Assembly: GCA_963733635.1 (NCBI GenBank)
Contig: CAVTEH010000009.1
Location: forward strand, 64,873 to 128,872
DNA: 64,000 nucleotides
Direction: 5' to 3'
Source: an uncultured Actinomycetota bacterium
GTDB taxonomy: Bacteria > Actinomycetota > UBA4738 > HRBIN12
Positions 27,999 to 47,938 of the stretch are shown here, in pieces. A program made the translations under genes and the position numbers. How positions within the stretch are numbered: position 1 is the stretch's first letter; each line of letters opens with the position of its first letter. The notes under the pieces were generated by a model. It worked only from the letters and a program-made list of their open reading frames with translations. It was not told where the DNA came from and did no database searches.

Positions 27999-29042
27999 TC
28001 ACATGCTCACCAGGATCCCATCGTGACCCCAGCTCGGCTGACCGTGGAAGACGTCCGTGAGGAGCGTTCGAACCTTTCCCGACTTCACGTGGATCACTTG
28101 AAGGTGGCCGTCCTCTTGGACGATGATCCAGCGCCCGTCCGGAGACCAGCTCGGGCTCAGCCTCCAGTGGTCGTTCTCCAGTTCCTCGAGTTGATGTTGC
28201 CCCGAACCGTCAGGCCGTATGGCCAGCAGCCCGGCCGGGTACTGCCCGATGAACTCCCGAGGTGCGAACCGGCTGAAGGCGATCCACCGTCCATCCGGGG
28301 ACCACGCGGGATCGCCACCGAATGGGAGGTAGCGAAGACGGAGCTGAGTAAGAGCGCCACCGGGAACCGATGCCAGCCATATCTGCGAGTAGTCGCCAGG
28401 CCCGTCCCAGGACTGGAAATTGGAGCCGCTCTGGAAGGCCACACGCGACCCGTCCGGAGACCAGTCGGGGTCCGCGTCGAGCTCGTGGGTTCCGGCGAGC
28501 CTTCGGATGTGGCCTCCGCGGGCGTTCATCACGAAGATGTCCGTGTCCATGTGATGACCCTCTCCTGGCCGAGTGCCGGCGAACGCGATCTGGGTCCCGT
28601 CGGGCGACCAGGTTGGGTCGGAAGCCCCTCGCCTCATGTTCGTCAGTTTCCGCGTCGCGCCATCCGAATCCATCACGAAGATCTGGGACGGGTCCCCAGG
28701 AGCACGGCTCTCGTAGACCACCCGTCTGCCGTCCGGTGAGAGCTCGGCGTTCGTCTGGGAGCCCCGAGCGGACAGGAACGCGGTCGCGTCCCCGGTCTTA
28801 GGGTTCACCACGTAGATGTCTCGGCCATCGGTCAGTTCAGGCTTCGACGGTTCTTGGGTGGGCGACGGCTGGTCGACCGAGGCGACTACGGACCCGCGGG
28901 CCGCGGGGGGAGGGTCCGGAGGCGAGACGCACCCGGAAGCGAACGCCAACAGAAGAACGACGCAGGCAGCGTGGTGAGCGCGAACGGTCCTGGCTCCCGC
29001 CCCCTGGACGAACTGCGAGGCGTTCCTACGTGTGGTGGGCAT
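27999..29042 (-). CDS. TolB-like PD40 beta-propeller lipoprotein (paralog 1)
   Basis: Lipobox AFASGC; repeated P.WSPDG..IAF motifs. Confidence 0.88.
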   Translation of the reverse strand: MPTTRRNASQFVQGAGARTVRAHHAACVVLLLAFASGCVSPPDPPPAARGSVVASVDQPSPTQEPSKPELTDGRDIYVVNPKTGDATAFLSARGSQTNAELSPDGRRVVYESRAPGDPSQIFVMDSDGATRKLTNMRRGASDPTWSPDGTQIAFAGTRPGEGHHMDTDIFVMNARGGHIRRLAGTHELDADPDWSPDGSRVAFQSGSNFQSWDGPGDYSQIWLASVPGGALTQLRLRYLPFGGDPAWSPDGRWIAFSRFAPREFIGQYPAGLLAIRPDGSGQHQLEELENDHWRLSPSWSPDGRWIIVQEDGHLQVIHVKSGKVRTLLTDVFHGQPSWGHDGILVSM

Positions 29043-29120
29043 GTGTCGATCCCCTTCGGCATGGGTGTCCTTCTTGGGAGATCCTCACCGGTGTGCCCAA
29101 ACGATTCCTGAACCGCGTCA

Positions 29121-29137
29121 TCAAGGATCCTTCAAGC
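29121..29137 (-). promoter_or_regulatory. TCAAG-N6-TCAAG direct-repeat box 1
   Basis: TCAAGG-ATCCT-TCAAGC, 79 bp upstream of the TolB-1 start. Confidence 0.75.
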
Positions 29138-29228
29138 CCTGACCTGGACGCTCGAGGCACGGACCTGCGCAGCCTCGCGGGGTGGTCCGAGCCACGAAGT
29201 AGCCACGCTTTGCTCGGGCGCTGCCCTG

Positions 29229-29719
29229 CTACAGGCCCACGTAATGGCCACGGTTCGGTGCGACGTCCCACGGACCTGCGCAGCACGCTATGGTCCTGAA
29301 TCGCACGACCTTGTGGATGTCGAACCACCTGCGCGGAAGACTGCACGCGATGCTCCGCTCGTTCGGTCGCCGCGCGTTCTGCCTGCCGATGACACGCTCG
29401 TCGCTCCTCGTCACGCGGCATCGGAACCCGTGGTCCGGGCCCCCGTTCGTGAAGAAGACCAACCGATCCGCCGCCCGCGTGCCATGAGTGTCCATGGACA
29501 CGACCTCGAAGGACGGCGAGTCACCATAGGAGTCCCATGTCCCGATCCACAGGACGACGCGGTTGCGGTTGATGCGAGTCACGACCGTCCGAATGTCGCG
29601 ATCGCCAGACCCGTCCTGCCCGTCGCGGCGCACTGCCAGGGTCGCGAGCCGAAGCGGTCTCCGCGAGCATCCCCCCGATCATTCCTACCGTCAAGCAGCA
29701 CGATCGAGGATCGCCGCAC
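29229..29719 (-). CDS. Secreted Cys-containing hypothetical protein (frameshifts in signal region)
   Basis: Signal-like MRRSSIVLL..; C-terminus IACSLPRRWF...DVAPNRGHYVGL. Confidence 0.6.
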
Positions 29720-29796
29720 GACTGCCCCCTTCGTTGTCATCCCCTTCTTCACCCGCTCTCTCCCTTCAATGCGGCCCGCCGCACGCGCGTAGGCGG

Positions 29797-30865
29797 TCAT
29801 CCGACGCTCGCTCGGGAGAGACTCACGAGGATCCCGTCCGGGCTCCAGCTCGGCTCGGCGTCCTCGGCGTTCCACAGCAGCGTTCGGTAGCGATCCGTCC
29901 GCACGTCGACGATGCCAAGGCGCCCGGGGGCTCCAAGGCCGTCCACGAAGACGACCGAGCGACCGTTGGGAGACCAGCTCGGGCCGTACCTCCACTGTCT
30001 GACCCACCGGCGCCCCTCGAGCGGATGCTCTTCAGTGCCGTCTGCTCGGACGAGCCACGTCCCTGCCCACGGCCATGAGCTACCGGTGGACCCCGGCGAG
30101 AACTCCGTGTAGGCGATCCACTGGCCATCCGGAGACCATGTGGGGTACGGGCCGCCCCCATACTTCAGGTCGAGCTCGACGAGGGGCCCGTCTGGGATCG
30201 ACGCGACCGCGACCCGGCCATGGCTCCGGCCCGGGATGGCACGGCCGCTCTGGAAGACGATGCGTGCGCCGTCCGGAGACCAGTCCGGGATGACCGTCGT
30301 GTCTCGCGGTCGAGGCGAGCCGTCGGATGCGACCGCCGCGAACGTCGATCACGAAGATGTCCGCGTCGGACGGTCCACCCTTGCCACCTGGGCGCGTACC
30401 GACGAACGCGATCCGGGTCCCGTCGGGCGACCACGTGGGAGCTGAGGCAGGGCGCTTCATATGCGTCAGCTGCCGCGCCGTCCCGTCGGCCTTCAGCAGG
30501 AAGATCTGGGACGGCACTCCGGGAGCGCCGCTCTGTAAGACGACCTGCTTTCCGTTCGGTGAGAACTCGGCGTTCGTCTGGGACCCACGGCCAGCCACGA
30601 GCAGGGTCAGTCGTCCCGTCCGGGGCTCCATCAGGTAGATGTCCGATCCCTTCTTGGTCTCATCACTTCCCGTGGATGACAGCGTGGTCGACGAAGCGTC
30701 GACGGGGGACTCGGCGGAGCCGCTCTTCTCGGGAAGCGAGTCTTGAGAAGGTCTGCACGAGGCCACAAGCACCGCTCCGATGAGCACGCGCGAGAACGTT
30801 GAGCGGACAGTCCTGGCTCCCGCCCTCTGCACCAGCAACGAGGCGGTCCTGCGTGTGTTGGGCAT
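29797..30865 (-). CDS. TolB-like PD40 beta-propeller lipoprotein (paralog 2, frameshift near 30290)
   Basis: Lipobox LVASC; GSQTNAEFSPNG, PTWSPDG, PSWSPNG, PSWSPDGILVS. Confidence 0.85.
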
Positions 30866-30932: not shown

Positions 30933-31427
30933 TTACGGGATCAGGTGGAGGGTGTAGGCGTCCTCCGTGCGCGTGGCGTGTCCGCGAACGTTCACGTAGG
31001 CCCCGGTGCCGCCGGTGACCGCCCAGTTGCGGGTGCCGGGGCCGAACAGCTGATACCCCGTAGTCACCACCGTCCCGCGCTGGGTGTTCGGGCCGGCCTT
31101 GAGCTTGTGGACGAAGGTGCAGATCTCACTGGTGGCACCCTCCGGTCCGTGGGATGGGCCAAGGCAGGTCTCGTTCATATGCCCGACTTTGTTGCCGTCC
31201 ACGTCGAAGAGCGGCCACTTGCCCAACAGGATCTGCCCTCCTCGGCGCCCGTCGTGCTCGCGCAGCTCGTAGAACCGAAAGACAGCGGGCTTGTGGAAGA
31301 CGTCGAATTCCAGCTTGACCTCCTCAGGTTGGGTGATGCCACCCCCTCCCCCGAACGAGACGCCGACGAGCGCTCCCGACATCAGGAGCGAGGCCGCGAT
31401 CGCCCCGACGATCAGCTTCCTCGTCAT
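30933..31427 (-). CDS. Secreted dirigent/allene-oxide-cyclase-like beta-barrel protein (paralog 1)
   Basis: Signal peptide; LFDVDGNKVG..C..C; WAVTGGTGAYVNVRG is the dirigent/AOC-fold GGTG motif. Confidence 0.7.
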   Translation of the reverse strand: MTRKLIVGAIAASLLMSGALVGVSFGGGGGITQPEEVKLEFDVFHKPAVFRFYELREHDGRRGGQILLGKWPLFDVDGNKVGHMNETCLGPSHGPEGATSEICTFVHKLKAGPNTQRGTVVTTGYQLFGPGTRNWAVTGGTGAYVNVRGHATRTEDAYTLHLIP

Positions 31428-31514: not shown

Positions 31515-31531
31515 TCAAGGATCTGTCAAGC
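31515..31531 (-). promoter_or_regulatory. TCAAG-N6-TCAAG direct-repeat box 2
   Basis: TCAAGG-ATCTG-TCAAGC; flanks nearly identical to box 1. Confidence 0.75.
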
Positions 31532-31626
31532 CCTGAGTTGGAGGCTGCCGGTGTGTTGACTCCGGTGCGCCCCGGGACGGATCGGCTCTCTGGCGCTCTT
31601 GAGGGCGAAGTTCGATACTCGGTCGG

Positions 31627-34600
31627 ATGAGGGAGACGAAGCACGCTCCCGTGGAGGTCGATCAGCCGCCGAACGGTCACAGCCACGAGCTCACTCGAAG
31701 GGCGCGCCCGCTGGGAGGATGCGGTTCCGGATCCTCGGGTCGCTGGAGGTCGAACTCGCTGGGCAACCGATCCAGCTCGGGCGGACCACAGCAGCGGGCG
31801 GTCCTCGCGCATCTGATCATCCGAGCCAACGAACTGGTTGCGGCCGATGTCTTGGTGAGCGAGATCTGGGGAGACGAAGCGCCGGAGGCGGCGCGGAACA
31901 CGATCTACACGTATGTCTCCCACCTGCGGAAGATGCTCGGCGCAGACCGCATCGAGAGTCAAACCCCCGGCTACCGTTTGCGGCTCGATCCGTCAGAGCT
32001 GGATGCCACCCGCTTCGACAAGCTCGTCAACGACGCGAGGAAGGCCGGGGTCATCGACCCGGGCATCGCCCTGACCGTGCTCGACGAAGCACTCGGGCTC
32101 TGGCGCGGCCTGCTCTCGCCGATGTCGCCGACGACGGCGCGCTGCTCGCGGAGGCGACGCGCCTCGATGAGCTCAGGCTGGTGGCCGGTGAGGAGCGCAT
32201 CGACGCCATGCTGGCGATCGGGGAGCCCGCCCGAGTCATCGGCGAGGCCGAGATCCTGGTCGGACAGCACCCGCTCAGGGAACGCATCTGGCGACAGCTC
32301 ATGCTGGCCCTCTACCGCGAGGGGCGACAGGCTGATGCCCTCACCGCGTATCAGCGCGTCAGGGAGATCCTCGCCGACGAGCTCGGGATCGATCCTTCGC
32401 CGGAGCTCGCCAGGCTGCACGAGCGGATCCTGAAGCAGGACCCCGGGCTCGAGCTCCGAGGTGAGCCTCTCCGCGGTTACCGGCTCTTGGAGAAGATCGA
32501 CGACGGACCCACCGGGGTCGTCTTCAGAGCGATCCAGCCCCGTGTGGGCCGCGACGTCGCGGTCAAGATCTTCCACGAACAGGTCGCTTCGGACCCTGCG
32601 TTCGTGCGGCGATTCGAGCAGGAGGCTCAGGCGGCTGCGGCCCTCGAGCATCCCCACATCGTTCCGGTCTACGACTACTGGAGGGAGCCCGGCCGCGCGT
32701 ACATCGTCTCGCGGTACCTGAAGGGAGGAAGCCTCGCGGCCCTGGAGAGCAGGGGCGATCGGCTCGCGCAAGGAAGTGGATCGCTCGTCGTGGAACAGGT
32801 GGCCTCTGCGCTCGGGTACGCACACCGACAGCACGTCGCACACGGGAGGGTATGCGCCTCCAACGTGTTGTTCGATGGGGAACGGAACGCCTACCTCGGG
32901 GACTTCCAGGTCGGCGTCGGGACGACTCCGGATCCGGCCGATGACGTCCGCGAGTTCGCCTCCCTCGCGCGAGGCGTTCTCGACGACGACGCACCGCCTC
33001 GCCTCAGGGAACTCATCGAACGAACGAACCTCGGAGCCGAAACGCCCGGCGCGGAGGCGTTCGCTGACGCCGCACGCGCGTCCTTCGAGCAGGAGACGGT
33101 TCCGACCGTCCGAACGGACGACGTCCGCAACCCGTACAAGGGCCTCAGGCCGTTCAGCGAGGCCGACGCCCACGACTTCTTCGGACGGACCGAGCTCACC
33201 GCGCGTCTGATCGGCCGGCTCGGCGAGACCGGGCGGGGGTCGAGGTTCCTCGCCGTGGTCGGGCCGAGTGGTGCAGGGAAGTCCTCCGTGGTCAGAGCCG
33301 GGATGGTTCCAGCGATCCGGCAGGGCGCCCTCGGGGACCCGCAGGCGTGCTTCGTCGCCGAGATGTTCCCTGGAGTGCACCCGATCGAGGAGCTGGAGCA
33401 GGCGCTCCTTCGCATCGGGACGCACCCGGCCTCACAGCTGCATGACCTGCTGGATCGGGACTCGAGAGGGCTCCTCGAAGCGTTGGTTCTCGTGCTCCCT
33501 GAACCCGCGACGCTCGTGCTGGTCGTGGATCAGTTCGAGGAGGTCTTCACGCTCACGGCCGACGAGCACGAGCGTGAGCTGTTCCTCGAGTCCTTACGCG
33601 TGGCGGCATCCGATCCTGAGAGCAGGCTTCGCGTCATCGTCACGCTCCGTGCCGACTTCTACGATCGCCCGCTCATGTACCCACGCCTGGGCGAGCTGCT
33701 CGCGGCGAGAACGGAGGCGGTGCCACCGCTCACGCCCGACGAGCTCGAGCAGGCCATCAGACGGCCGGCCGAAGAGGTCGGCATCACGGCCGAACCCGGC
33801 CTCGTTGCGGAGGTCATCGCCGATCTCGCGCACCAACCCGGCTCGCTTCCGCTGCTGCAGTACGCCCTCACCGAGCTGTTCGAGCGACGCGAAGGCGATC
33901 GGCTCACCCTCTCGGCCTTCGAGGAGATCGGGGGCGTCGGAGGGGCCTTGTCCGCTCGAGCGGACCGCATCTTCGCGACGACCGGGCCCGACGGTCAGCG
34001 GGCCATCCGACAGGTGTTCCTGCGGCTCGTCACGATCGGGGAAGGCCGGCAGGACACGCGGCGTCGGGTCACACGGAGCGAGCTCGACGCGCTCGACGTG
34101 GATCCGGAGCTCATCGAGATGACGATGGACACGTACGGACGTCACCGCTTGCTGACGTTCGATCGAGAACCGGCAACTCGGGAGCCGACCGTCGAGATCG
34201 CGCACGAGGCCCTGCTCGTCGCGTGGACCCGGCTCCGCGTCTGGATCGACGACGCGAGGGAGGACCTCCGCCAGGATAGGCGCCTCTCCCGGGCCGCCGG
34301 GGAATGGCGGGGGTCCGACCGCGATCCGAGCTTCGTGCTTCGCGGCGCACGGCTGGAGCAGGTCGAGACGTGGGCCGCAGCGACCGACCTCGCGATCGGC
34401 CGCCCCGAGCGCGAGTACATGAAGGCGAGCGTCGACGTGCGTGATCGGGAGATGGAGGAGGAGCGGGCCAGACGCGCGCGCGAGGAGAGGACGGAGCGTC
34501 GATCCCGTTCCCGGCTGCGGGCTCTGGTCGCGGTGCTCGCCGTCGCCGCTGTGGTCGCCGCGACCCTCACCGTCCTCGCCACGGGCCAGCGCGGAAGAGC

Positions 34601-36692
34601 CGACCGTGAGGCCACGAAGGCTCAGGACGAAGCGCGGGTCGCGACAGCGAGGGAGCTGGCGAACGCCGCCGTCTCCAACCTGGAGGCCGACCCCGAGCTC
34701 AGCATCCTGCTCGCCATGGAGTCGATCGATCGGACCCGCTCGGTCGACGGCACCGTGCTTCCCGAGGCTAAGGATGCCCTCCATCAGGCTGTCGTGGCGT
34801 CACGGATCGAGGTGACGATGCCCGGCGTCGGGGGGGAAGTCGCCTGGAGCCAACAAGGGATGCTCGCCGCTGCGAGCGCCGAAGGCGAAGGGATCGTCGA
34901 GATCAGGGATGCCGAGACCGGTGCGCGAGTGCGCTCGCTCCAGGCCCACGACGGCGCGATCACCGGCCTCGCCTTCAGCAGGACCGGGGCCATGCTGGCA
35001 ACGACCGGGGGCGACGGGATGCTGAAGGTGTGGGATTCCTCAAGCGGCGAGCTCCTCTCCAGGGTCCGAGGGGCCGGCGAAGCGCGTGCTCCGGCTTTCG
35101 ATGTTCATGGCGTTCGCGTAGGGGCCGACTGGGTCGGCATCGACACGGTCCGGATCGCGAACCCGATCACCGGCCACGTGAAGACCTCCGTCGCCGTTCC
35201 CCCTGGGGTCGTAGCATTCGATCCCGACCTTCGCCGGATCGTCGTGGTGAGCAGACGGGCCGCCGTTGTGCTCGACCTCGAGACCGGTCGTGGCATCGAG
35301 CTCAGAGGATCCGTCGATCTCCTTGAGGACTACGGCGGCTCACTGGCGTGGAGCCCCGACGGCCGCTGGATCGCGGTGGGCTCGACGGGCTGGGCGAACA
35401 TCTTCGATGCGCGAACGGGACGGTCCCCATTCAGCCTGCCTCACAATGAATTCGTGTCGAGCCTAGCGTGGAGTCGCAACTCCACCCGAGTGGTGACCGG
35501 TGGGTCGGAAACCGCGAAGGTGTGGGAGATCGAGAAAAGCGGGCCGGAACAGCTCATCTCGCTACCGCCGGCGATCGCACCCAGCGTGATCGCGAGCGTT
35601 GCGTTCTCGCCGGATGGAACGCGGATCCTTACTTCCGACGCCGACGGCACGGTCGCGAAGATCTTCGACATCGACATCTCGGGGGACGCGGAGGTGGCGA
35701 ACCTGCCCGCCACTCCGAACTTCGGCGATGTGGAGTTCATGCCCGATGGGGTACACGTCGCGAGGCAAGTCAGCGAGGACCGCTTCATCGCGATCTGGGA
35801 TCTGGAAACCGGACGGACCGTTCGAAGGATCGGGCCTCCGGGGTCATGGTCCTACGGGTTCACGCAAGCGCAGTTCGAGGTGAGTCCGGACGGAGCATCG
35901 ATCGCCGCGATGTCGGGGGATGGGGAGGCCGGCGTCTGGGACATCGCGTCGGGGGATCGGCTCTTCGCCATCCCGGAGGACGAGCTGGTCTCGCTCGTGG
36001 ATTGGAGTCCGGACGGCAAGCACGTGATCATGGCGAGCCTGCACGGATGGGCGAGGATCCTCGATCGAACCGGTCGCACGATCCAGGTCCTGCGCGAGGA
36101 CGACGGGTACGAAGCGGTGGGCGCGACGTTCAGCTCCGACGGCCGCTTCGTGGCGCTCAGCGCGAGTCCCGACGGGGAGGTTCCGAACCTCGAGCCACGA
36201 ACGAAGATCTGGGACGTGGAGCGAGGGCAAGTAGTGAGCACCATCGTGGGGAACACCAGCGGCTGGTCCGCGTTCAGTCTGGACGGCTCTCGCATCGTCA
36301 CGACGACCGACCCAGCGGGACCGGCAACTGTGTGGGACGTGATGACCGGTACCCTTCTCGCAGTGCTGGATGGCGTGGTGACCAACGTCGACTACAGCCC
36401 CGACGGCTCCCGGATCGCGGCGGCGATGAGGGACGATACGGTCCGCCTGTTCGACGCGAGCTCAGGCGAACAGTTGCTCGTCCTGCGAGGCCACGACAAC
36501 CCAGTCGCGTTCGTGGACTTCAGCCCGGACGGAACGATGCTGGTGTCGGGCGCGGCTGACACAGTCGTTCGGGTCTGGGCTCTCCATCTCGACCATCTCC
36601 TCGAGATCGCCCGGCGAGAGCTCACGAGATCACTCACCGACGAAGAGTGCCGGCAGTACCTGCACCTGGAGCGTTGCCCGGCGGGCCAGTGA
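31627..36692 (+). CDS. SARP (wHTH-BTAD)-pseudokinase-nSTAND1 NTPase-TM-WD40 regulator (paralog 1; compensating indels near 31780 and 32110; alternative start 31719)
   Basis: FRILGSLEV, YVSHLRK, ALGLWRG, HPLRER, ELGIDPSPEL; VAVK; NPYKGL, GPSGAGKSS, VDQFEE, RADFY, LPLLQYAL, EIAHEAL; hydrophobic helix; many WD/SPDG repeats. Confidence 0.92.
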
Positions 36693-38298: not shown

Positions 38299-38790
38299 TT
38301 ACGGTGTCAGTTGCAGGATGAAGGGGTCACGCCCTGGTCCGTCCTCGAACGTGGCGAAACCACGGACGTTCTCGTAGGCTTCGGTTCCGCCCGTCACCGC
38401 GAACACATCCGGGTTCGCCGGACTGGCGTAGATGCCCGTGGTGACGACCGTCCCTCGCTCGGTGTGCTGGCCGGTCTTGAGCGTCAGGACATAGGTGCAG
38501 ACCCAGTTGACCCCGGTCGCGACCGTGCAGGAGGCGTTCAGACGCCCGACCTTGTCGCCGTTCACATCGAAGAGCGGGTTCTTGCTCAAGCTGACCTGCC
38601 CTGTTCGGTGTCCGCCTAGCTCCCGCAGTGGGTAGAACCGACACTGACCCTTGTTCCCGCAGATGTCCACCGACAGCTCGATCACCTCGGGTTGGTTGAT
38701 ACCACCCCCTCCTCCGAACGAGACGCCGACCAGCGCCCCCGACGTCAGGAGCACTGCTGCGAGCGCCCCGACGATCAGCTTCCTTGTCAT
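38299..38790 (-). CDS. Secreted dirigent/AOC-like beta-barrel protein (paralog 2)
   Basis: MTRKLIVGALAAVLLTSGALVGVSFGGGGGI.QPE as in paralog 1; FAVTGGTEAYENVRG. Confidence 0.72.
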   Translation of the reverse strand: MTRKLIVGALAAVLLTSGALVGVSFGGGGGINQPEVIELSVDICGNKGQCRFYPLRELGGHRTGQVSLSKNPLFDVNGDKVGRLNASCTVATGVNWVCTYVLTLKTGQHTERGTVVTTGIYASPANPDVFAVTGGTEAYENVRGFATFEDGPGRDPFILQLTP

Positions 38791-40863: not shown

Positions 40864-40880
40864 TCAAGGATGTTGCAAGG
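40864..40880 (-). promoter_or_regulatory. TCAAG-N6-(G)CAAG direct-repeat box 4
   Basis: TCAAGG-ATGTT-GCAAGG, 61 bp upstream of the TolB-3 start. Confidence 0.7.
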
Positions 40881-40986: not shown

Positions 40987-43900
40987 ATGGCCGATACCGC
41001 CACCTCGAAGGATCGACCTCGACACACAGGTGGGCCCAGGATGCAGTTCCGGATCCTCGGCTCCCTGGAGGTCGAGCGCGCGAACCAACCGCTCACCCTC
41101 GGCGGACCCCGACCGCGTGCGCTGCTGGCGCATCTGATCGTTCGAGCCAACGAGCTGGTCCCGACCGATGTCCTCGTGAGCGAGGTCTGGGAGGACGACG
41201 CGCCGGCATCCGCGCGAGGCACGATCCACTCGTACGTCTCCCGGCTCCGGAAGGAGCTCGGCGCCGATCGCATCGAGGGGCAGAGTCCCGGCTACCGCCT
41301 GCGGCTCGATCCGTCGGAGCTGGACGCGGCGCGGTTCGACAGGCTCGTCAACGACGCCAAGAAGGTCGGGGCGCTCGACCCCGGCATCGCTGCGTCCATG
41401 CTCGAAGAGGCGCTCGGCCTTTGGCGCGGTCCCGCGCTCGCCGACGTCGCCGAAGACGGCGCCCTGCGTGCCGAGGCGACGCGTCTGGACGAGCTGAGGC
41501 TGGTCGCCGCGGAGGAGCGCATCGAGGCCGTGATGGCGGTCGGCGAGCACGCCCGGGTCATCGGTGAGGCCGAGCTATTGGTGGCGCAGCACCCGCTCCG
41601 GGAACGCCTGTGGAGCCAGCTCATGCTGGCCCTCTATCGCGACGGACGCCAGGCCGACGCGCTCGGCGCGTACCAGCGACTGCGGGAGATCCTGGCCGAC
41701 GAGCTGGGGGTCGATCCGTCACCCGAGCTCGCGCGGCTCCACGAGCGGATCCTGAGGCAGGATCCGGACCTGGAGCTCCGCGGCGATCCGCTGCGCGGCT
41801 ACCGCCTGTTGGAGAAGATCGGCGAAGGACCGACCGGGGTCGTCTTCCGGGGGCTCCAGCCCCGCGTGGGGCGGGACGTCGCGGTCAAGATCTTCCACGA
41901 ACAGGTCGCGTCGGACCCCTCGTTCGTGCGGCGGTTCGAACGGGAAGCGCAGGCGACCACGGCGCTGGAACATCCCCATATCGCCCCGGTCTACGACTAC
42001 TGGCGCGAGCCCGGCGGCGCGTACGTCGTCTCGAGGTACCTCAAGGGAGGAAGCCTCGCGGCCCTCGAGGCCCGGGGTGGTGGGCTCGAGGCGGATCGTG
42101 CGTCGCTGGTCGTCGAGCAGATCGCGTCGGCGCTGGCGTTCGCACACCGACAGCACGTCGCGCACGGCGGGCTGCGCCGCCTCCAACTGCTGTTCGACGG
42201 GGAGAACAACGCCTACCTCGGGGACTTCCGTGTCGGCGTCGGGCCGGAACCGGAGCCGGCCGATGACATCCGCGAGCTGGCACGGCTCGCCAAGAGCCTC
42301 TTCGATGGACGAGATGCCGCATCGACTCCGTGCGCTCGTCGAGACCACATCGCTTTCGGATGAGGTCCCCGGCGCGGAGGCGTTCGTCGAGGCCGCCCGG
42401 GCTGCCGCCGACCCCGAGACGGCTCCTAGCACTCGACCGGCCGACATCCGCAACCCCTACAAGGGTCTGAGGCCGTTCACCGAGGCAGACGCCCACGACT
42501 TCTTCGGGCGGAGCGAGCTCACCGCGCGGCTGCTGGGTCGGCTCGCCGAGACCGGGCGGGATGCCCGGTTCCTCGGCGTCGTGGGCCCAAGTGGCGCGGG
42601 CAAATCCTCGGTGGTCAGGGCCGGGATGGTGCCGGCGATCCGGCAGGGCGCCCTCGGGGATCCACAGGAGTGCTTCGTTGCCGAGATGTTCCCAGGGACC
42701 CACCCGATCGACGAGCTCGAGCAGGCGCTCGTCCGGGTCGGCACGCACCCGGCGTCACGCCTGCACGACGTGCTCGATCGAAGCTCGAGAGGGCTGCTGG
42801 ACGCCCTGGACCTCGTGCTGCCCGCACCGGCGATCCTCGTCCTGGTCGTCGACCAGTTCGAGGAGGTCTTCACCCTCACCGCGTGACGAGCACGAGCGGG
42901 AGCTGTTCCTCGAGTCCTTGCGCGTGGCGGCACTCGATCCCGAGAGCAGGATCCGAGTCATCGTGACGCTTCGCGCCGACTTCTACGACCGCCCTCTGAC
43001 GTACCCGCGGTTCGGCGAGCTGCTCGCGGCACGGACCGAGGCGGTGCCTCCGCTCACGCCCGACGAGATCGAGCAGGCGATCCGACGGCCGGTCGAAGGG
43101 GTCGGCATCGCCGTCGAGCCCGGCCTCGAGGCCGAGATCATCGCCGACGTCGCCCACCAGCCCGGCGCGCTTCCGCTGCTCCAGTACGCGCTCACGGAGC
43201 TGTTCGAGCGACGGGACGGCGACCGGCTCACCCTCGCGGCATTCGAGGAGATCGGCGGCGTGGCGGGAGCCCTGTCGGCGCGGGCCGATCGCATCTTCGC
43301 GACCGCCGAGCCGGACGGGCAGCGGGCGATCCGACAGGTGTTCCTGCGGCTCGTCACGATCGGCGAAGGACGGCAGGACACGCGGCGTCGCGTCACGCGG
43401 AGCGAGCTCGATGCGCTCGACGTCGAACCCGAGCTCGTCGAGACGGCGCTGGACACCTACGGACGCCACCGGTTGCTGACGTTCGATCGGGAGCCGTCGA
43501 CCCGGGAGCCGACGGTCGAGATCGCCCACGAGGCCCTGCTCACCGCGTGGGCACGGCTCCGCACGTGGATCGACGATGCGCGCGAGGACCTGCGTCAGGA
43601 CCGGCGCCTGGTTCGCGCGGCCGGGGAGTGGCGCGGTTCCGATCGCGACCCCAGCTTCCTGCTCCGGGGCGCACAGCTGGAGCAGGTCGCGGCGTGGGCC
43701 GCATCGACCGATCTCGCGATCGGCCGGCCCGAGCGCGAGTACGTCAAGGCGAGCGTCGACAAGCGTGACCGGGAGCGTGCCGAGGAGCAGGCCCGGCGCG
43801 AGCGCGAGGAGCGGACGGAACGCCGATCCCGTTCGCCGGTTGCGCGCCCTCGTTGCGGTGCTCAGCGTCGCTGCCCTCGTGGCCGGAACGCTCACGGTCA

Positions 43901-46055
43901 TCGCGACCCGCCAGAGCGAGCGCGCGGAGACCGAGGCGAGGGTCGCGAGCGCGAGGGAGCTCGCGGCCGCCGCGGTGGCAAACCTCGAGAACGACCAGCA
44001 GCTGAGCGTCTTGCTCGCCATGGAGGCGGTGGACCGGACCCGCTCGGTCGACGGCTCCGTCCTGCAGGAAGCCGAGGAGGCGCTCCATCAGCGCGGTGAC
44101 GGCGTCGCGGATCGTGACGTCGATCCCGGGCTCGGGCGACGCTGGAACCCAGCGACGAGGCACTGGGGGGCCATCGACTGGGGTCCGGCGGGGCTCGTCG
44201 TGATGGACGGGGTCTTCGCGTCCGAGGGGCGCCGCCCGTCGGGATCATCGACCTCAGGGACCAGGAGACGGGGGAGATCGTGCGATCGCTCCCCGGACAC
44301 GACGGGAAGCTCACCGGGGCCGAAATTCAGCCCCGACGGCTCGACGCTCGCCACGACCGGCGAGGACGGTCGGCTCAAGATCTGGGATCTGCCGAGCGGC
44401 GACGTGATCGAGAACGTCAAGGGCCCCGGCGTGGCGCGGGGCCCGTCCTTCAGCGCGGACGGGTCGCGGGTCGCAGCGGCATTCGGCGAGTTTCGGACGG
44501 GGTGGATCGGTGCGAGTCGTGGATCTGAACACGGGCGGGGTTCAGACGTTCCCAGCGGCGCCATGGACGAACGACGTCGCGCTCAGCCCGGACGGGAGGC
44601 GGGTCGTCGCCGTCGGCGGCTCCTGGGTCAGAGGTCTTCCATCTGATCGATGTCGAGACCGCGGAGGTCCATCGGATCGCGGGAAGCCCGGCCGGCAACG
44701 GATTCCTCTCGGTCGCATGGAGCCCGGACGGGCGGCACATCGCTGCGGGTGGTTGGGACTCCCAGGTCCCGGTGATGGACGCGAACGGACGACCTCGAGT
44801 TCCTGCTCCGGGGCCACAGCTCGGCGCCCACTGGGTCGACTGGAGTCCCGACGCGACCCGCCTGGTCACCGGAAGCGACGATGGGACGGCCAAGATCTGG
44901 GAGATCACCGGCTCAGGGTGCGACGGAGGTGCAGACCCTCTCGGCGCGTGCCGGGGAGATGACCGGCGTCGCCTTCTCGCCCGACGGCACCCGCGTGATG
45001 ACCCGCTCGGAGACGAGGGTGATGGACGTCTGGGACGTCGGTCCGACGGGCGGCGCCGAGGTCGCGAACGTCGCCGGCGCGACGGAGCTCGTGAGCTTCT
45101 TGTCGGATGGGCGTCACGTAACGACCAGCGGCAGGGATGGCTCGCTGAGTATCCTCGATCTCGAGACCGGAGAGCAGGTTCACCGTCCGAACCGATGGTT
45201 CGAACTGCCGCGGGGGCCTTACTCGGGCTATGAGTTCAGCTATGACTTCAGCCCGGACGGCAGATCCGTCGCCATCTACAGCTACACCCGCGGGAAGCAC
45301 ACCCTTCGAGACGTCGAGACCGGAGCCGAGCTCCTGACGTGGCGAACAGCCCACACGGTTTCGACTGGAGCCCGGATGGCCGGTTCGCGGCCGTGAACGG
45401 GGGACGGATCGATCACGATCTTGGACGCCTCCGGACGAAGGGTGGGCGTTCTAGAGGCGGACGGGTTCACGATCCTGGAGGGTCTCAGGTTCGGTCCGGG
45501 TGGCCTCGTCGCGATCCGGCGACCGGAACAAGGAGCGGGGCGACGCACGATTTGAAGATCTGGGACTGGACGCGTGACGAGGTCGTCGCGGAACTGCCGG
45601 TCTCGAGAATTCATGAGTTCATGGCAGTTCGACGCCGATGGGAGCACGGATCGCGATCGGGGACGCCGAAACCACGATCTGGGATGTGCAGTCCGAGCGA
45701 CTCCTCGTGACCTTGCCCTCGAGCCAGGTTTGCCCACCGACATCGCGTTCAGCCCGGACGGCTCCCGGGTCGCCGAAGGGCGACCCCGATGGAACCGTGC
45801 GGGTGTTCGACACGAGCTCGGGCGAGGAGGTGCTCGCCCTTGGAGGGCACGACGTTGCTGACCAGGTGGCCTTCAGCCCGGACGGCTCGATGCTCGCGAC
45901 GGTGGGCGACGGGATCCTGCGGATCTGGGCGCTCGACATCGACGACCTGCTCGAGATCGCCCGACGAGAGCGTCACCAGATCGCTCACCGACGAGGAATG
46001 CCGGCAGTATCTCCACGTCGAGTCCTGCGCCGTTCGCATGATGCGCGTAGCGTAG
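40987..46055 (+). CDS. SARP-pseudokinase-nSTAND1-TM-WD40 regulator (paralog 2; many frameshifts; alternative start 41041)
   Basis: Same domain order and motifs as paralog 1; ends LEIAR..TRSLTDEECRQYLHVESC. Confidence 0.9.
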
Positions 46056-46076: not shown

Positions 46077-46092
46077 TTGAGCTCCGGGACGG

Positions 46093-47601
46093 TCACGGTC
46101 GGGTGGCCACGGCACAACCGCCGGAGTACGTGGGAGGAGCTGATCGGAGGACGTGTACGGACCCCGGATCATCGACGGCGTTCTCCATCTCCCAGGGGTC
46201 CTCGACCAAGTCGAGCAGCTCCATGGCCCCTGACTCGTACACGACCAGCTTCCAGCGGTCTTCCCGGATCCCACAGTAGTCGAGCCGCGCTCCGGGACCG
46301 TCGGCGTACTCGATCACGCTCCGATTCCTCCAGGCGATGTCTCGTCCGGCGAGCAGTGGTAGGAGGCTGTCGCCATCGACCGGCGCGGATGGCTCGATCC
46401 CGGCGACATCTGCGATGGTCGGCGCTAGGTCGATGTTCAGCACCGGCGTGGCGTCGCTTCGAGCCAGCCCATGGGTCAGGGGGTCGAAGCGAATCACCAT
46501 CGGCACTCGGATCGATTCCTCGTAGGGCCAGATCTTGCCCTCGAGGCCGTGTTCGCCCCACATGTAGCCGTTGTCAGAAGTCAGGATGAACATGGTGTTG
46601 TCCATCTCACCGATGCGGTCGAGCCACTCCACCATGCGTCCAACCTCACGATCGACCCCCGCCAGCGCGCGGTACTGCTGAAGGCGGACGCGATCGATCC
46701 CCGCGATCCGCTCCCGATCGAGGAGCCCGTCCTTCGGGAAGGGGCGTGAATCGTCGGTGCGATCCACCACACCGAACGAGGGTGGTCGCCACAGGGCCAG
46801 CTCGGAGAACGCCTTCGCGTCGCGCCTGAGGGGGATGAAGGGCTCATGAGGGGCTGGGAGTCCCAGCATCGCGAAGAACGGCTCGTCTGGGTATCGTGCG
46901 ATCGACCCCCGGATGAAACCGCGCATCAGCCTAGGAAACGCCACGGTGGAGTGGTCACGTTGCCGCGTGCCGTACCGGCGTCGTTCGCCGTCGATCGCCA
47001 GCACATAGTCGAGATAGCCCGCGAACTTCGTTCGATCCACGATCGGAGCGAATCGATCCCAGCCGGGTGGCCGACCGCGAGCACCGGGGTTCCCGTATCC
47101 GTTCAGGTACTTACCCACGAACAGCGTGTGGTACTGGACGTCGTGGAGCCAGGTCGCGATCGTCGACGAAGGGTCGAAGGCCTCGGCGCCACCCATGGGC
47201 GGGTGATTGGTCCAGACGCCCGTGTTGTGCGAGTACTGCCCCGTGAGCATGCTGGCCCGACTCGGACAGCAGAGCGGGTTGACCACGGAGGCGTTCGTGA
47301 ACGTGACGCCCTCGTGCATCAGGTACCGCCGCACGTTGGGCATCGCGCCCAGGGTGTCGAACCGTTGATCGTCCGTGAACAGGAGGAACACGTTGGGACG
47401 GTCCGGCTCACGATCTTCCGTCATCCGCGCCGCGCCATGTCGTTCGAGCTCGGCTTTCGGAGTCCCCGACGTGCCGGGCAGCGCCGCGCACGCCATCGGT
47501 ACCGCGAGCGCGATGACCACCATGATCGAAACGATCCATCGCAGTTGGATGATCCCTCCGGCCTCGTTTCGCCGGCGCCTGTTGGATCCGAACTCGGCCA
47601 T
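46093..47601 (-). CDS. Formylglycine-dependent sulfatase (S1; N-acetylglucosamine-6-sulfatase-like), exported or lipoprotein
   Basis: PNVFLLFTDDQ, LCCPSRASMLTGQY (CxPxR), GKYLN, TSDNGY.WGEH, YEESIRVP. Confidence 0.92.
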   Translation of the reverse strand: MAEFGSNRRRRNEAGGIIQLRWIVSIMVVIALAVPMACAALPGTSGTPKAELERHGAARMTEDREPDRPNVFLLFTDDQRFDTLGAMPNVRRYLMHEGVTFTNASVVNPLCCPSRASMLTGQYSHNTGVWTNHPPMGGAEAFDPSSTIATWLHDVQYHTLFVGKYLNGYGNPGARGRPPGWDRFAPIVDRTKFAGYLDYVLAIDGERRRYGTRQRDHSTVAFPRLMRGFIRGSIARYPDEPFFAMLGLPAPHEPFIPLRRDAKAFSELALWRPPSFGVVDRTDDSRPFPKDGLLDRERIAGIDRVRLQQYRALAGVDREVGRMVEWLDRIGEMDNTMFILTSDNGYMWGEHGLEGKIWPYEESIRVPMVIRFDPLTHGLARSDATPVLNIDLAPTIADVAGIEPSAPVDGDSLLPLLAGRDIAWRNRSVIEYADGPGARLDYCGIREDRWKLVVYESGAMELLDLVEDPWEMENAVDDPGSVHVLRSAPPTYSGGCAVATRP

Positions 47602-47688
47602 CGATGGCTCCCCTCGTGTCCCTGCCCTCGCTCCGGGCGGTCACTCGGACCCTCCAGCAAGCCCCTTGACGGACGCCGAACCCTGCTC

Positions 47689-47705
47689 TCAAGGTTTCTT
47701 CAAGC
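47689..47705 (-). promoter_or_regulatory. TCAAG-N6-TCAAG direct-repeat box 5
   Basis: TCAAGG-TTTCT-TCAAGC, 88 bp upstream of the sulfatase start. Confidence 0.72.
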
Positions 47706-47800
47706 GCCCACGCGAAGCTGCAATGGCGATGGCTGCGCCGAACAGGTCCCCCGGGGAGCGGCTCCTGGTGCCAGGTACCGCGAGGTTCGATCTCGGTCCG

Positions 47801-47938
47801 ATGAGTGAAATGAGGCAGGCTCCCGGACCGGCCGAGCAGATTGCCAAGCACGCGCCGCGGTCACCCACGTGACCGGCCTCGGCTGGACAGTTGCAGTTCC
47901 GGATCCTAGGACCGGTCGTGATGGGCCAAGGTGAGTGA
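47801..47938 (+). pseudogene. 5' stump of a third SARP-type regulator
   Basis: Upstream GAGGTTCGAT-CTCGGTCCG-ATG resembles the promoter of paralogs 1 and 2. TTGCAGTTCCGGATCCTAGGACCG encodes LQFRILGP, then the frame ends. Confidence 0.65.

What the first reader, a model, noticed from the sequence alone, without database searches (positions are those of the whole stretch)
27999..47938. Repeated NLR-like one-component signalling system: SARP-pseudokinase-nSTAND1-TM-WD40 regulators divergent from secreted propeller, barrel and enzyme operons
Seen: three times, a plus-strand regulator (31627, 40987, stump at 47801) sits back-to-back with a minus-strand unit of exported proteins. These units are dirigent-like + TolB-like + secreted protein; double TolB-like + dirigent-like + chimera; and a sulfatase. 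Two more minus-strand units (TolB-1; small peptide + Cys/His protein) share the same promoter box. Known: SARP wHTH-BTAD domains are transcription activators, and STAND NTPases oligomerise when their repeat domain binds ligand (AfsR, MalT, NLRs). Inference: these are membrane-anchored receptors whose WD40 domain senses an external or envelope cue and directly activates a secretome, with no biosynthetic cluster involved. The PD40 lipoproteins may be co-receptors, decoys or inhibitors of the WD40 sensor. I know of no description of this regulator-plus-regulon module.
Basis: partly seen in the sequence, partly recalled or inferred. Interest (0 to 1): 0.88.

Follow-up and report, generated by a model that had tools for sequence, protein, structure and literature searches.

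The report
Membrane-anchored SARP–STAND–WD40 regulator cassettes
An uncultured soil actinobacterium carries repeated cassettes in which a giant, probably membrane-spanning DNA-binding receptor sits back-to-back with genes for exported proteins that share one promoter motif, which suggests an undescribed way for bacteria to turn an outside signal directly into gene activation.

Summary
The region has two paralogous regulators plus a truncated third. Their architecture is wHTH-BTAD, pseudokinase, nSTAND1, one hydrophobic helix, then a double WD40 propeller. Each sits divergent from minus-strand genes for PD40 lipoproteins, small barrels or a sulfatase. Five minus-strand promoters share an 11-bp-phased direct repeat, CTTGA-N6-CTTGA. 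Its exact pattern has 6 hits in the 3.05-Mb genome, 5 of them here. This geometry is typical of SARP sites.

Relatives are all soil MAGs. In them the helix is present in 31 of 31 full-length homologues, with a positively charged N-flank. A relaxed box is about 50-fold enriched in the 1 kb upstream of regulators. All 3 barrel loci in this genome, and 10 of 11 strong homologues in sister genomes, lie beside a regulator. The "dirigent-like" barrel is closest to the pyocyanin demethylase PodA.

Caveats:
- The assembly is full of frameshifts (13 of 40 control genes), and regulator 2 may be a real pseudogene.
- 18 of 32 regulators have other neighbours.
- No DNA binding, topology or ligand has been shown.
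- Not all box-linked genes are exported.

Verdict: a real, undescribed variant of large SARP/STAND regulators. The mechanism is inferred.

The parts
27999..29042 (-). PD40 (TolB-like) beta-propeller lipoprotein, intact, 347 aa
   Evidence: Pfam PD40 E 2.6e-28. The N-terminus ends in an ASGC lipobox-like motif, read from the translation. TIGR02800 TolB scores 110.8 bits, far under its cut-off of 343.
29121..29136 (-). Box 1 (CTTGA-N6-CTTGA direct repeat), about 80 nt upstream of the PD40 start
29232..29678 (-).
   Evidence: No Pfam or NCBIfam family. One paralogue at C7:247-615. I saw no export signal.
29800..30865 (-). PD40 lipoprotein 2, split over two frames by a frameshift
   Evidence: Pfam PD40 on both pieces, E 1.3e-11 and 2.5e-17. 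Paralogous to 27999..29042 (D1/D7).
30933..31427 (-). PodA-like / AOC-dirigent-fold barrel 1, 164 aa, with a conserved N-terminal hydrophobic helix and Gly linker
   Evidence: Pfam Dirigent E 3.9e-5, below cut-off. AlphaFold2 model pLDDT 84.4. Foldseek top hit is 5k21 pyocyanin demethylase, E 1.8e-6. The family profile hits 5k21 at E 4.2e-6.
31515..31530 (-). Box 2, about 88 nt upstream of barrel 1
31580..31626 (+). Regulator 1 promoter-like motif (CTGGCGC-N17-GATACT), 7 nt before the ATG at 31627
   Evidence: Conserved before regulator 1, regulator 2, the stump and two relatives. A leaderless start is my inference.
31627..36692 (+). Regulator 1: wHTH-BTAD, pseudokinase, nSTAND1, TM helix, double WD40 propeller. 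About 3 frameshifts in the first 500 nt.
36634..37284 (-). Cys/His-rich protein, 216 aa, no known family, no export signal seen
   Evidence: No Pfam, NCBIfam or PADLOC family. The Atlas returns only 'hypothetical protein' clusters of Actinomycetota. The same position downstream of a regulator occurs in L020 and L061.
37281..37421 (-). 46-aa acidic, Pro-rich peptide whose stop overlaps the Cys/His start (ATGA)
   Evidence: Conserved, with the same overlap, in L061.
37503..37518 (-). Box 3, upstream of the peptide and Cys/His unit
37557..38298 (-). Chimera: 5' third of a PD40 lipoprotein gene joined to the 3' half of a barrel gene (deletion remnant)
   Evidence: Translations. DNA repeats D2/D7/D9/D10 match PD40 genes at 79-96%. 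tblastn groups.
38299..38790 (-). PodA-like barrel 2, 163 aa
   Evidence: Pfam Dirigent E 6e-4. Member of alignment A2 as P0135.
38849..40766 (-). Double PD40 propeller protein, frameshifted, including inside its signal region
   Evidence: Pfam PD40 E 5.8e-28 and 2.6e-9 on the two frames. Translations.
40864..40879 (-). Box 4, upstream of the double PD40 gene
   Evidence: The identical 16-mer occurs beside a regulator in G014.
40987..46055 (+). Regulator 2: same architecture, wHTH intact, at least 7 frame changes. Possibly a decaying copy.
46093..47601 (-). Exported Cys-type sulfatase, 502 aa, intact
   Evidence: Pfam Sulfatase E 1e-41 and SGSH_C E 5.4e-24. A CxPxR-type motif and an N-terminal hydrophobic segment were read from the translation.
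47689..47704 (-). Box 5, about 88 nt upstream of the sulfatase
47785..47938 (+). Regulator stump: promoter motif, ATG at 47801 and the first strand of the wHTH, then truncation
47956..48368 (+). vapB-like (RHH) antitoxin and the start of a PIN (vapC-like) gene, where the third regulator's body would be
   Evidence: Translations. Family names come from my reading of the motifs, not from a family search.

Best explanation
These are cassettes of a one-component transmembrane receptor and its target promoters.

**Proposed protein layout**
- The cytoplasmic part runs from the N-terminus: an OmpR-type wHTH plus BTAD (a SARP module), a nucleotide-binding but catalytically dead kinase fold, then an nSTAND1 NTPase with intact Walker motifs.
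- A single conserved transmembrane helix then places the roughly 650-residue double WD40 propeller outside the cell.

**Proposed mechanism (inferred)**
1. A ligand binds, or clusters, the external propellers.
2. This promotes NTP-dependent oligomerisation of the STAND modules at the membrane.
3. Side-by-side SARP domains then bind the 11-bp-phased CTTGA direct repeats.
4. They recruit RNA polymerase to the divergent promoter and to orphan promoters in trans.

**Induced genes**
- Mostly envelope proteins: PD40 lipoproteins, membrane-tethered PodA-like barrels and a sulfatase.
- Also one small-peptide plus Cys/His pair.

**Shown versus inferred**
- Shown: the domain order, the conserved helix, the motif and its enrichment, and the conserved gene pairing.
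- Inferred: topology, DNA binding, activation, the ligand and the physiological role.

**State of this locus**
- In this genome the locus is partly eroded: a stump, a chimera and a heavily frameshifted regulator 2.
- Regulator 1's breaks are no more frequent than the assembly's background error.
For: **Architecture**
- The family consensus keeps K323, the Walker A motif and the DQFEE Walker B, but lacks the catalytic Asp.

**Helix**
- Present in 31 of 31 homologues, with a positive N-flank.
- Its sequence conservation is 0.85, equal to the enzymatic domains (0.86-0.87) and above the WD40 domain (0.65).

**Swappable output domains**
- The N-terminal outputs on one nSTAND1-TM-WD40 chassis vary: SARP plus pseudokinase, class III cyclase plus SARP plus pseudokinase, or cyclase alone. 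This fits a signalling receptor.
- The sensor diverges faster than the rest: WD40 32-55% identity, against 55-73% for nSTAND1 over the 10 unsplit full-length matches among the same loci; two broken copies are matched in pieces of 63-88% and 41-70%.

**Box**
- 5 matches in the window against 0.02 expected.
- 5 of the 6 genome-wide matches lie in this 20 kb.
- The relaxed box gives 0.56 per kb in the 1 kb upstream of 37 regulators, against 0.011 per kb elsewhere in the same loci and 0.005 per kb in the whole genome.
- 19 of 37 regulators have at least one box within 2 kb upstream: 13 on the target strand, and 8 on the regulator strand of which 2 have both.
- The sulfatase and Cys/His promoters share little with the others except the box (alignment A1).
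- SARP sites are direct repeats spaced 11 or 22 bp apart (PMC10936776, passages).

**Pairing**
- All 3 barrel loci in this genome abut the 3 regulators.
- Of 11 strong barrel genes (E <= 1e-20) in 23 sister genomes, 10 lie within about 3 kb of a regulator match.
- 13 of 32 regulators with at least 2.5 kb of flank have PD40 and/or a barrel divergent within 2.6 kb.
- By a crude test, the nearest divergent ORF has a signal-like N-terminus in 18 of 31 cases, against 43 of 242 other ORFs in the same loci.
Against: - No experiment of any kind exists. All relatives are uncultured MAGs.
- No -10 element or transcription start could be assigned downstream of the box.
- In five sister genomes the exact box pattern is no more frequent than its reversed control (14 matches against 14), and only 3 of the 14 lie by a regulator. 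A wider regulon is therefore not visible.
- In one paralogue group (C3 of this genome, L015, L020, L055, L066) the box points towards the regulator, not the barrel gene.
- 18 of 32 regulators have other neighbours.
- Three of the five window boxes sit in promoter regions that are paralogous to one another (75-nt repeat family D15, 84% and 63% identity). Part of the sharing is therefore common descent.
- Orthologous loci inflate every count.
- A STAND sensor separated from its NTPase by a membrane has no known precedent, so the activation step is conjecture.
- The Cys/His protein and the peptide do not look exported.
- Both regulators are out of frame in this assembly.
Confidence: 0.6

Rival explanations
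1. Release by proteolysis. The protein is membrane-tethered only while inactive. A signal at the WD40 domain triggers cleavage in or near the helix, and the freed soluble SARP-pseudokinase-STAND part oligomerises and activates the boxes away from the membrane.
For: The same anatomy as the main model. It removes the problem of a roughly 1000-residue cytoplasmic module reaching DNA while anchored. The helix is as conserved as the catalytic domains (0.85), which would suit a recognition site.
Against: No site-2-protease-type or other protease gene was seen in the cassettes. Neighbours are PD40, barrel, sulfatase and unknowns. Membrane-bound wHTH regulators that bind DNA without release are known (ToxR/CadC, from my own knowledge).
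Confidence: 0.15
2. Ordinary cytoplasmic large-SARP/STAND regulator. The hydrophobic stretch is a buried or dimerising helix, the WD40 domain is an intracellular sensor as in other STAND proteins, and the exported neighbours are simply its targets.
For: All characterised STAND sensors contact their NTPase directly (established knowledge; AfsR in PMC10936776, abstract and passages). WD40 domains are mostly cytoplasmic. No topology predictor or experiment was available here.
Against: A charge-free stretch of 19 or more residues with Kyte-Doolittle 2.0-3.0 occurs at a fixed position in 31 of 31 homologues. It is flanked by an Arg-rich N-side, which is the classical signature of a signal-anchor helix.
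Confidence: 0.12
3. NLR-like conflict or immunity module. nSTAND1 proteins were defined in counter-invader systems. Here the SARP would be an effector that switches on a defensive envelope programme on sensing a phage or competitor. Tandem, fast-diverging cassettes would reflect an arms race.
For: nSTAND1 was named in the context of conflict systems (PMC8195603, passage read). The cassettes are multi-copy and clustered in sister genomes. The WD40 domains diverge fastest. PodA, the nearest solved relative of the barrel, degrades a competitor's toxin (entry title; its biology is from my own knowledge).
Against: PADLOC models hit only the kinase fold, and no defence-system STAND model matched. 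No nuclease, TIR, protease or other death effector is fused or adjacent. An external sensor would not meet phage proteins inside the cell.
Confidence: 0.1
4. The box is unrelated to the SARP domain. It would be the -35 region, or the site of another regulator or sigma factor, copied along with duplicated cassettes.
For: Three boxes lie in paralogous promoter DNA (D15). The second repeat contains a TTGA that could serve as a -35. In sister genomes the exact pattern is at background frequency.
Against: The box persists where the flanking sequence has diverged. It recurs in variant form before non-homologous targets across MAGs and is about 50-fold enriched upstream of the regulators. The SARP is the only DNA-binding domain encoded in the cassettes.
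Confidence: 0.1

Closest known systems
AfsR and other 'large' SARPs (SARP-NOD-TPR), Streptomyces
   Same: An N-terminal OmpR-type wHTH plus BTAD, followed by a STAND-class NTPase and a repeat sensor. The target sites are two direct repeats phased at 11 bp that overlap the -35 region (PMC10936776, abstract and passages).
   Different: - The NTPase is nSTAND1, not NB-ARC, and the sensor is a WD40 double propeller, not TPR.
- A pseudokinase is inserted between BTAD and the NTPase, and a hydrophobic helix separates the NTPase from the sensor.
- The targets are envelope proteins rather than an antibiotic pathway.
- The NCBIfam AfsR model scores 90 bits against a cut-off of 1430.
ToxR / CadC-type membrane-bound wHTH one-component regulators (from my own knowledge)
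   Same: A cytoplasmic OmpR-family wHTH at the N-terminus, one transmembrane helix and an extracytoplasmic C-terminal sensor. Transcription is activated directly, without a phosphorelay.
   Different: Those proteins are small (about 300-500 aa) with no NTPase. Here about 950 residues of BTAD, pseudokinase and STAND lie between the wHTH and the membrane, and the sensor is a 14-blade-scale WD40 region.
Mycobacterial class III cyclase-STAND-HTH proteins (Rv0386 type) and kinase-beta-propeller receptors (PknD, PkwA); recalled, not tested here
   Same: The cyclase-STAND fusions seen here in sister genomes echo the first group. Kinase fold, transmembrane helix and external propeller echo the second.
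   Different: Neither combines a DNA-binding SARP, a STAND NTPase and an external propeller in one chain. The kinase fold here lacks the catalytic Asp and the C-lobe.
PodA, pyocyanin demethylase of Mycobacterium fortuitum (PDB 5k21)
   Same: It is the best structural and sequence match of the small barrel: Foldseek E 1.8e-6, TM 0.51-0.69, and profile E 4.2e-6 over 128 residues. The size is similar, and PodA also has an N-terminal hydrophobic helix (recalled).
   Different: Identity is only about 20%. Catalytic residues were not compared, and the substrate is unknown. In the family here the N-terminal helix is more conserved (0.83) than the barrel (0.58).

Membership tests
SARP (Streptomyces antibiotic regulatory protein) family | OmpR-type winged helix (Trans_reg_C) followed by BTAD | tested here: met
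   Regulator 1: Trans_reg_C E 1.8e-9 (alternative frame) and BTAD E 1.1e-33. Regulator 2: BTAD E 2.8e-47, with the wHTH reading through.
SARP (Streptomyces antibiotic regulatory protein) family | Binds direct repeats spaced 11 or 22 bp apart next to the -10 element and activates transcription | tested here: inconclusive
   Candidate repeats with 11-bp phasing were found and are enriched. No -10 element was assigned. Binding and activation are not testable with these tools.
AfsR-type large SARP | NB-ARC-type NOD plus TPR sensor, cytoplasmic | tested here: not met
   The NTPase is nSTAND1 and the sensor is WD40, with a hydrophobic helix between them. The NCBIfam AfsR model scores 90 bits against a cut-off of 1430.
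nSTAND1 STAND NTPases (PF20703) | Full-length match to the family model with Walker A and B | tested here: met
   E 1.2e-117, profile positions 1-378 of 379. The GPSGxGKSS and DQFEE motifs are invariant in 36 aligned sequences.
nSTAND1 STAND NTPases (PF20703) | Association with conflict or defence effectors | tested here: not met
   PADLOC hits only the kinase fold. The N-terminal modules are SARP and/or cyclase.
Hanks-type Ser/Thr protein kinases | Catalytic loop HRDxKxxN with Asp, DFG, and a complete C-lobe | tested here: not met
   The loop reads HGRVCASN here and HGNvxSSN in the consensus. DF is followed by a non-Gly residue. The Pfam match stops at profile position 144 of 263. The VAVK lysine is kept. 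It is therefore a pseudokinase.
Membrane-bound one-component wHTH regulators (ToxR-like) | One transmembrane helix between a cytoplasmic wHTH and an external sensor | tested here: inconclusive
   Hydropathy and the positive-inside rule fit in 31 of 31 homologues. No topology predictor or experiment was available.
AOC / dirigent / PodA beta-barrel fold | Eight-stranded barrel with a GGTG.Y-type motif, plus a match to family models | tested here: met
   Model pLDDT 84.4. 42 PDB chains match at E <= 0.001, all of those listed having this fold. The TGGTGAY motif is nearly invariant. The Pfam Dirigent score of 23.8 is below its cut-off of 29.1, so this is membership of the fold, not of the Pfam family.
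PodA pyocyanin demethylase | Catalytic residues and phenazine substrate | not tested
   Only overall similarity was measured. I had no verified list of the active-site residues.
TolB of the Tol-Pal system | Equivalog-level match and tol-pal gene context | tested here: not met
   TIGR02800 scores 110.8 bits against a cut-off of 343. The neighbours are regulators and barrels, not tol/pal genes.
Sulfatase (PF00884) | Family match and a C/S-x-P-x-R maturation motif | tested here: met
   E 1e-41 over profile positions 1-301 of 301. The motif was read in the translation.

The most novel reading that the evidence does not exclude
This would be a transmembrane NLR-like transcription factor. A STAND NTPase would have its WD40 sensor outside the cell, read ligand-induced clustering across the membrane, and switch on promoters directly through its own SARP domain.

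The membrane-tethered PodA-like barrels (and the PD40 lipoproteins in other cassettes) would not be mere outputs. They would be co-receptors that present a small-molecule ligand.

The basis for the co-receptor idea is the barrel's N-terminal helix. It carries an invariant G-x-x-x-G and is more conserved than the barrel itself (0.83 against 0.58). It could pack against the equally conserved, small-residue-rich helix of the regulator (0.85).
Probability: 0.15. Interest if true: 0.85.

Novelty: new variant of a known kind. Interest (0 to 1): 0.62.

Why it matters
Large SARP/STAND regulators are known as cytoplasmic switches for antibiotic pathways. NLR-type STAND proteins are known as intracellular sensors.

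If the model holds, this family puts the sensor of a STAND protein on the far side of the membrane. It also joins that sensor to a DNA-binding output in one polypeptide, which is a third way, beside two-component systems and ECF/anti-sigma pairs, to couple an outside cue to transcription.

The family is abundant in soil metagenomes. At least 5297 proteins matched at E <= 0.001 among the 8000 candidates scored, and the 120 listed are all from metagenomes or MAGs. It appears with swappable outputs (SARP, cyclase, or both).

It would also give a first functional context to a small, lineage-restricted family of PodA-like tethered barrels. That family has 50 proteins at E <= 1e-5, none with a functional name (where a source gives any name it is 'hypothetical protein').

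The predicted binding site and the compact cassettes make the idea directly testable by heterologous expression.

Tried and rejected
**Steps that led nowhere**
- Rfam at gathering threshold on the whole window gave 0 matches, so the shared leader is not a known RNA family.
- Complex prediction with the regulator's TM+WD40 part (residues 1000-1697, alignment A3) against the barrel (alignment A2) returned 'no answer' with score 0.00. It counts neither for nor against binding.
- The look-up of sequencing runs found one soil run holding 0.05 of the sampled words. Laying it gave only short, low-depth contigs, mostly 90-95% alike. One 1-nt insertion appeared at 44233 in a single divergent contig. 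This could not settle whether the frameshifts are assembly errors.
- The frameshift sites are not at long homopolymers, so sequence context did not settle it either.
- The comparison with orthologues did help. 13 of 40 unrelated genes are broken, at 0.39 frameshifts per kb (a sub-sample gave 0.19 per kb). That matches regulator 1 (about 0.6 per kb) but not regulator 2 (at least 1.4 per kb).
- My first box searches used the wrong spacing and found nothing. I corrected them.
- GC3 frame plots were too noisy to call genes.
- Several long flanking ORFs chosen for Pfam were probably wrong frames, since 5 of 10 had no family. The 5 with hits are a P-type ATPase, an ABC ATPase, a chromate transporter, an MFS transporter and an HD-domain protein. 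I therefore saw no biosynthetic enzyme nearby, but this was not an exhaustive scan.
- I considered a mirror-tree test of co-evolution between barrel and WD40 and dropped it, because cassettes duplicated as units would give the same signal.

**Literature**
- No paper in the held library contains SARP + BTAD + WD40 or BTAD + WD40 + NTPase + Actinobacteria.
- The searches returned nothing that describes this architecture.
- I read passages only in PMC13581612, PMC10907252, PMC5587647, PMC8195603 and PMC10936776.
- Supplementary tables, for example the STAND clade lists of PMC13581612, were closed and might list this clade.

**Unpublished genomes**
- G019, G029 and G037 are flagged unpublished. 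They enter only the tallies, and G019 also the survey as locus L017.
- No claim in this report rests on them, and I left G019 out.

Full report
**Source and quality of the sequence**

The window is G000:C9:64873-128872 of a 3.05-Mb, 10-contig genome with about 68% G+C. Its marker completeness is only 55.5%. Its relatives are all metagenome-assembled genomes from soil, labelled uncultured Actinomycetes or Actinomycetota, with one labelled Gaiellaceae.

I compared 40 unrelated genes with intact orthologues in related loci. 13 of the 40 are frameshifted here, with 21 frame changes in 53.3 kb, or 0.39 per kb. A third of all genes being broken is not credible biology, so most frameshifts are consensus errors of the assembly. 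Every 'broken' gene below has to be read with that in mind.

**The regulators**

Regulator 1 (31627..36692, +) has a 1697-aa open frame. Pfam finds these domains on it:
- BTAD at 143-278, E 1.1e-33.
- A protein-kinase match at 294-438, covering only profile positions 1-144 of 263.
- nSTAND1 at 512-910, E 1.2e-117, essentially full length.
- WD40 repeats from about 1080 to 1670.

The OmpR-type winged helix (Trans_reg_C, E 1.8e-9) is in the neighbouring frame. Relatives match regulator 1 only from residue 170 onwards. Its first 500 nt therefore carry about three frame changes, a rate close to the assembly's background.

Regulator 2 (40987..46055, +) has an intact wHTH and BTAD (E 2.8e-47; translation). 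It changes frame at least 7 times. That is about 1.4 per kb, roughly four times the background, so it may be a genuinely decaying copy. I could not settle this.

The third copy is a stump. It keeps the conserved regulator promoter motif at 47785, an ATG at 47801 and the first strand of the wHTH (47891-47938). A vapB/vapC-like pair follows. A fourth regulator, also broken, lies on contig C3.

**Pseudokinase, NTPase and helix**

In an alignment of 36 family members the VAVK lysine is invariant. The catalytic loop reads HGN/R-x-x-S/A-S-N instead of HRD-x-K-x-x-N, and the C-lobe is absent. The module is therefore a conserved pseudokinase. Walker A (GPSGxGKSS) and Walker B (DQFEE) of the NTPase are invariant.

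Between the NTPase and the propellers lies a charge-free hydrophobic stretch:
- In 31 of 31 full-length homologues taken from related loci, the best 19-residue window has a Kyte-Doolittle mean of 2.0-3.0.
- It sits 416-424 residues after Walker A.
- The 20 residues before it hold 6-10 Lys or Arg, and the 20 after it hold 2-7.

This is the classical signature of an N-in/C-out signal-anchor helix, which would put the WD40 region outside the cell. The helix is as conserved (0.85) as the enzymatic domains (0.86-0.87). The WD40 region is the least conserved part (0.65). I had no topology predictor and no experiment, so this step remains an inference.

**Variants of the chassis**

Sister genomes and metagenomes carry the same nSTAND1-helix-WD40 body with different N-terminal outputs:
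- SARP plus pseudokinase.
- Class III cyclase plus SARP plus pseudokinase (1934 aa in a near-complete relative).
- Cyclase alone.

Swappable outputs on one sensor body fit a signalling receptor. The family is large: 5297 proteins matched at E <= 0.001 among the 8000 candidates scored. The 120 listed all come from metagenomes or MAGs. Their names are automatic, such as 'BTAD domain-containing putative transcriptional regulator' or 'WD40 repeat protein/DNA-binding SARP family transcriptional activator/class 3 adenylate cyclase'.

**The minus-strand genes**

- 27999..29042 is an intact PD40 propeller lipoprotein.
- 29800..30865 is a frameshifted paralogue of it.
- 38849..40766 is a frameshifted double PD40 protein.
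- 46093..47601 is an intact sulfatase with an N-terminal hydrophobic segment and the Cys-type maturation motif.
- 30933..31427 and 38299..38790 are small barrels.
- 37557..38298 joins the 5' third of a PD40 gene to the 3' half of a barrel gene. This is what a deletion within a PD40-barrel operon, like those in relatives, would leave.
- 36634..37284 is a Cys/His-rich protein with no family and no visible export signal. A 46-aa acidic peptide (37281..37421) precedes it, and the peptide's stop overlaps the start of the Cys/His gene. The same pair, with the same overlap, occurs in a relative.

**What the barrel is**

Pfam's Dirigent model hits below its cut-off (23.8 bits against 29.1).

An AlphaFold2 model built from 41 homologues has pLDDT 84.4. 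It shows an N-terminal helix, a low-confidence Gly linker and a beta-barrel. Foldseek against the PDB puts pyocyanin demethylase PodA (5k21) first, at E 1.8e-6. Diels-Alderases, allene oxide cyclases and dirigent proteins follow. A profile of the family also finds 5k21 by sequence, at E 4.2e-6.

The family is small and lineage-restricted: 50 proteins at E <= 1e-5, none with a functional name (13 of the 50 carry the label 'hypothetical protein', the rest no name).

Its N-terminal 33 residues are more conserved than the barrel (0.83 against 0.58). They include an invariant G-x-x-x-G inside the hydrophobic helix. That is unusual for a cleaved signal peptide and suggests a retained membrane anchor.

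**The promoter box**

Aligning the five upstream regions shows one shared block, a direct repeat CTTGA-N6-CTTGA with 11-bp phasing.

| Test | Result |
|---|---|
| Exact pattern CTTGMNNNNNCCTTGA in the window | 5 matches, all minus strand, all 65-100 nt before a start codon; 0.02 expected |
| Exact pattern in the whole genome | 6 matches, against 1 for the reversed control |
| Relaxed pattern in the 1 kb upstream of 37 regulators | 22 hits in 39.2 kb |
| Relaxed pattern elsewhere in the same loci | 6 hits in 555.7 kb |
| Relaxed pattern in this whole genome | 16 hits |
| Regulators with at least one relaxed box within 2 kb upstream | 19 of 37 (13 on the target strand; 8 on the regulator strand, 2 of them with both) |

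The exact pattern was derived from these five sites, so only its rarity elsewhere counts as evidence.

By the passages I read in PMC10936776, SARP sites are direct repeats spaced 11 or 22 bp apart. [quoted passage not shown]

**Evidence against the box model**

- I could not assign a -10 element.
- Three of the five window boxes lie in promoter DNA that is itself paralogous (75-nt family D15).
- In five sister genomes the exact pattern is no more frequent than its reversed control (14 against 14), and only 3 of the 14 lie by a regulator.
- In one paralogue group the box points at the regulator rather than at the barrel gene. That could mean autoregulation.

**The regulators' own promoter**

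A second conserved block lies just upstream of each regulator: CTGGCGC-N17-GATACT, followed 7 nt later by an ATG. It occurs before regulator 1, regulator 2, the stump and two relatives. The N-terminal peptide that starts at this ATG is conserved. A leaderless transcript is my inference.

**Conservation of the pairing**

- In this genome barrel homologues occur at three loci, and all three abut the three regulators. PD40 homologues occur at 11 loci, four of them in this cluster.
- In 23 sister genomes, 12 rows (11 genes) match the barrel profile at E <= 1e-20. Ten of the 11 genes lie within about 3 kb of a regulator match. The eleventh is on a contig for which no regulator row was listed. Weaker, more distant barrel paralogues are scattered and unlinked.
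- Across 51 public loci, 32 regulators have at least 2.5 kb of upstream sequence:
  - 13 have PD40 and/or a barrel on the opposite strand within 2.6 kb (9 PD40 only, 3 both, 1 barrel only).
  - 18 have something else.
  - 1 follows another regulator.
- The 'something else' includes further signal-bearing families.
- By a crude hydrophobic-N-terminus test, the nearest divergent ORF looks exported in 18 of 31 cases, against 43 of 242 other ORFs in the same loci.
- Orthologous loci inflate all these counts.

**Context**

PADLOC models hit only the kinase fold. NCBIfam hits are all far below their cut-offs. Rfam finds nothing. Among ten flanking ORFs, the five with Pfam hits are transporters and an HD-domain protein. 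I therefore saw no biosynthetic enzyme next to the cassettes, but this was not an exhaustive scan.

**Reading**

The best-supported model is a one-component transmembrane receptor. Its external, fast-evolving WD40 domain controls oligomerisation of a cytoplasmic STAND module, and so controls the binding of its SARP domains to phased CTTGA repeats. These repeats sit in front of genes for envelope proteins.

The anatomy, the motif and the gene pairing are shown. Topology, DNA binding, the ligand and the physiological purpose are inferred.

The similarity to PodA gives one concrete lead: modification of an external aromatic compound. The conserved helices of the barrel and the regulator give a bolder one: a co-receptor pair.

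The locus in this genome is partly eroded, with a stump, a chimera and perhaps regulator 2. Intact copies in sister genomes are the better objects for experiments.

**Novelty**

I found no description of this architecture or module in the held literature. Public annotation gives only automatic names. All the modules are known, and large SARP/STAND regulators are a known kind. I therefore rate it a new variant of a known kind, of moderate to high interest.

Noticed in passing
window 47956-48368 and onward to about 48620: A vapB-like (ribbon-helix-helix) and PIN (vapC-like) toxin-antitoxin pair sits exactly where the body of the third regulator should be, as if it had replaced it. The PIN gene also looks frameshifted.
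   Followed up: partly
window 37281-37421 and 36634-37284: A conserved 46-aa acidic, Pro-rich peptide is translationally coupled (ATGA overlap) to a Cys/His-rich protein of no known family. The pair recurs downstream of regulators in two relatives, and this genome has 5 more paralogues. The function is unknown; a peptide plus a modifying or binding partner is possible.
   Followed up: partly
whole genome G000: The assembly has about 0.39 frameshifts per kb in conserved genes (13 of 40 broken). This explains its 55% marker completeness at a normal genome size. Any gene-level claim from this genome needs an intact relative as a check.
   Followed up: yes
G000:C3:425456-431099: A fourth cassette: a broken SARP-nSTAND1-WD40 regulator divergent from a barrel gene. 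Here the CTTG-N7-CTTGA-type repeat points towards the regulator rather than the barrel gene. The same arrangement occurs in loci L015, L020, L055 and L066.
   Followed up: partly
loci L025, L047, L057, L060, L069 (upstream of regulators): A further family of roughly 200-250-aa signal-bearing proteins shares a conserved '...FH.D...CGGH' stretch. It takes the divergent position in several cassettes. In L057, L060 and L069 it sits next to a Tat-signal lipoprotein of about 500 aa.
   Followed up: no
loci L028 and L050: Two contigs labelled Gemmatimonadota or Gemmatimonas carry regulators 70-72% identical to the actinobacterial ones, with the same box and neighbours. These are probably binning errors rather than gene transfer.
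   Followed up: no
sister genomes G016:C4 90-115 kb, G009:C6 0-24 kb, G014:C14 96-120 kb: Three or more regulator cassettes stand in tandem, each with its own barrel and/or PD40 partner. This resembles NLR gene clusters.
   Followed up: partly
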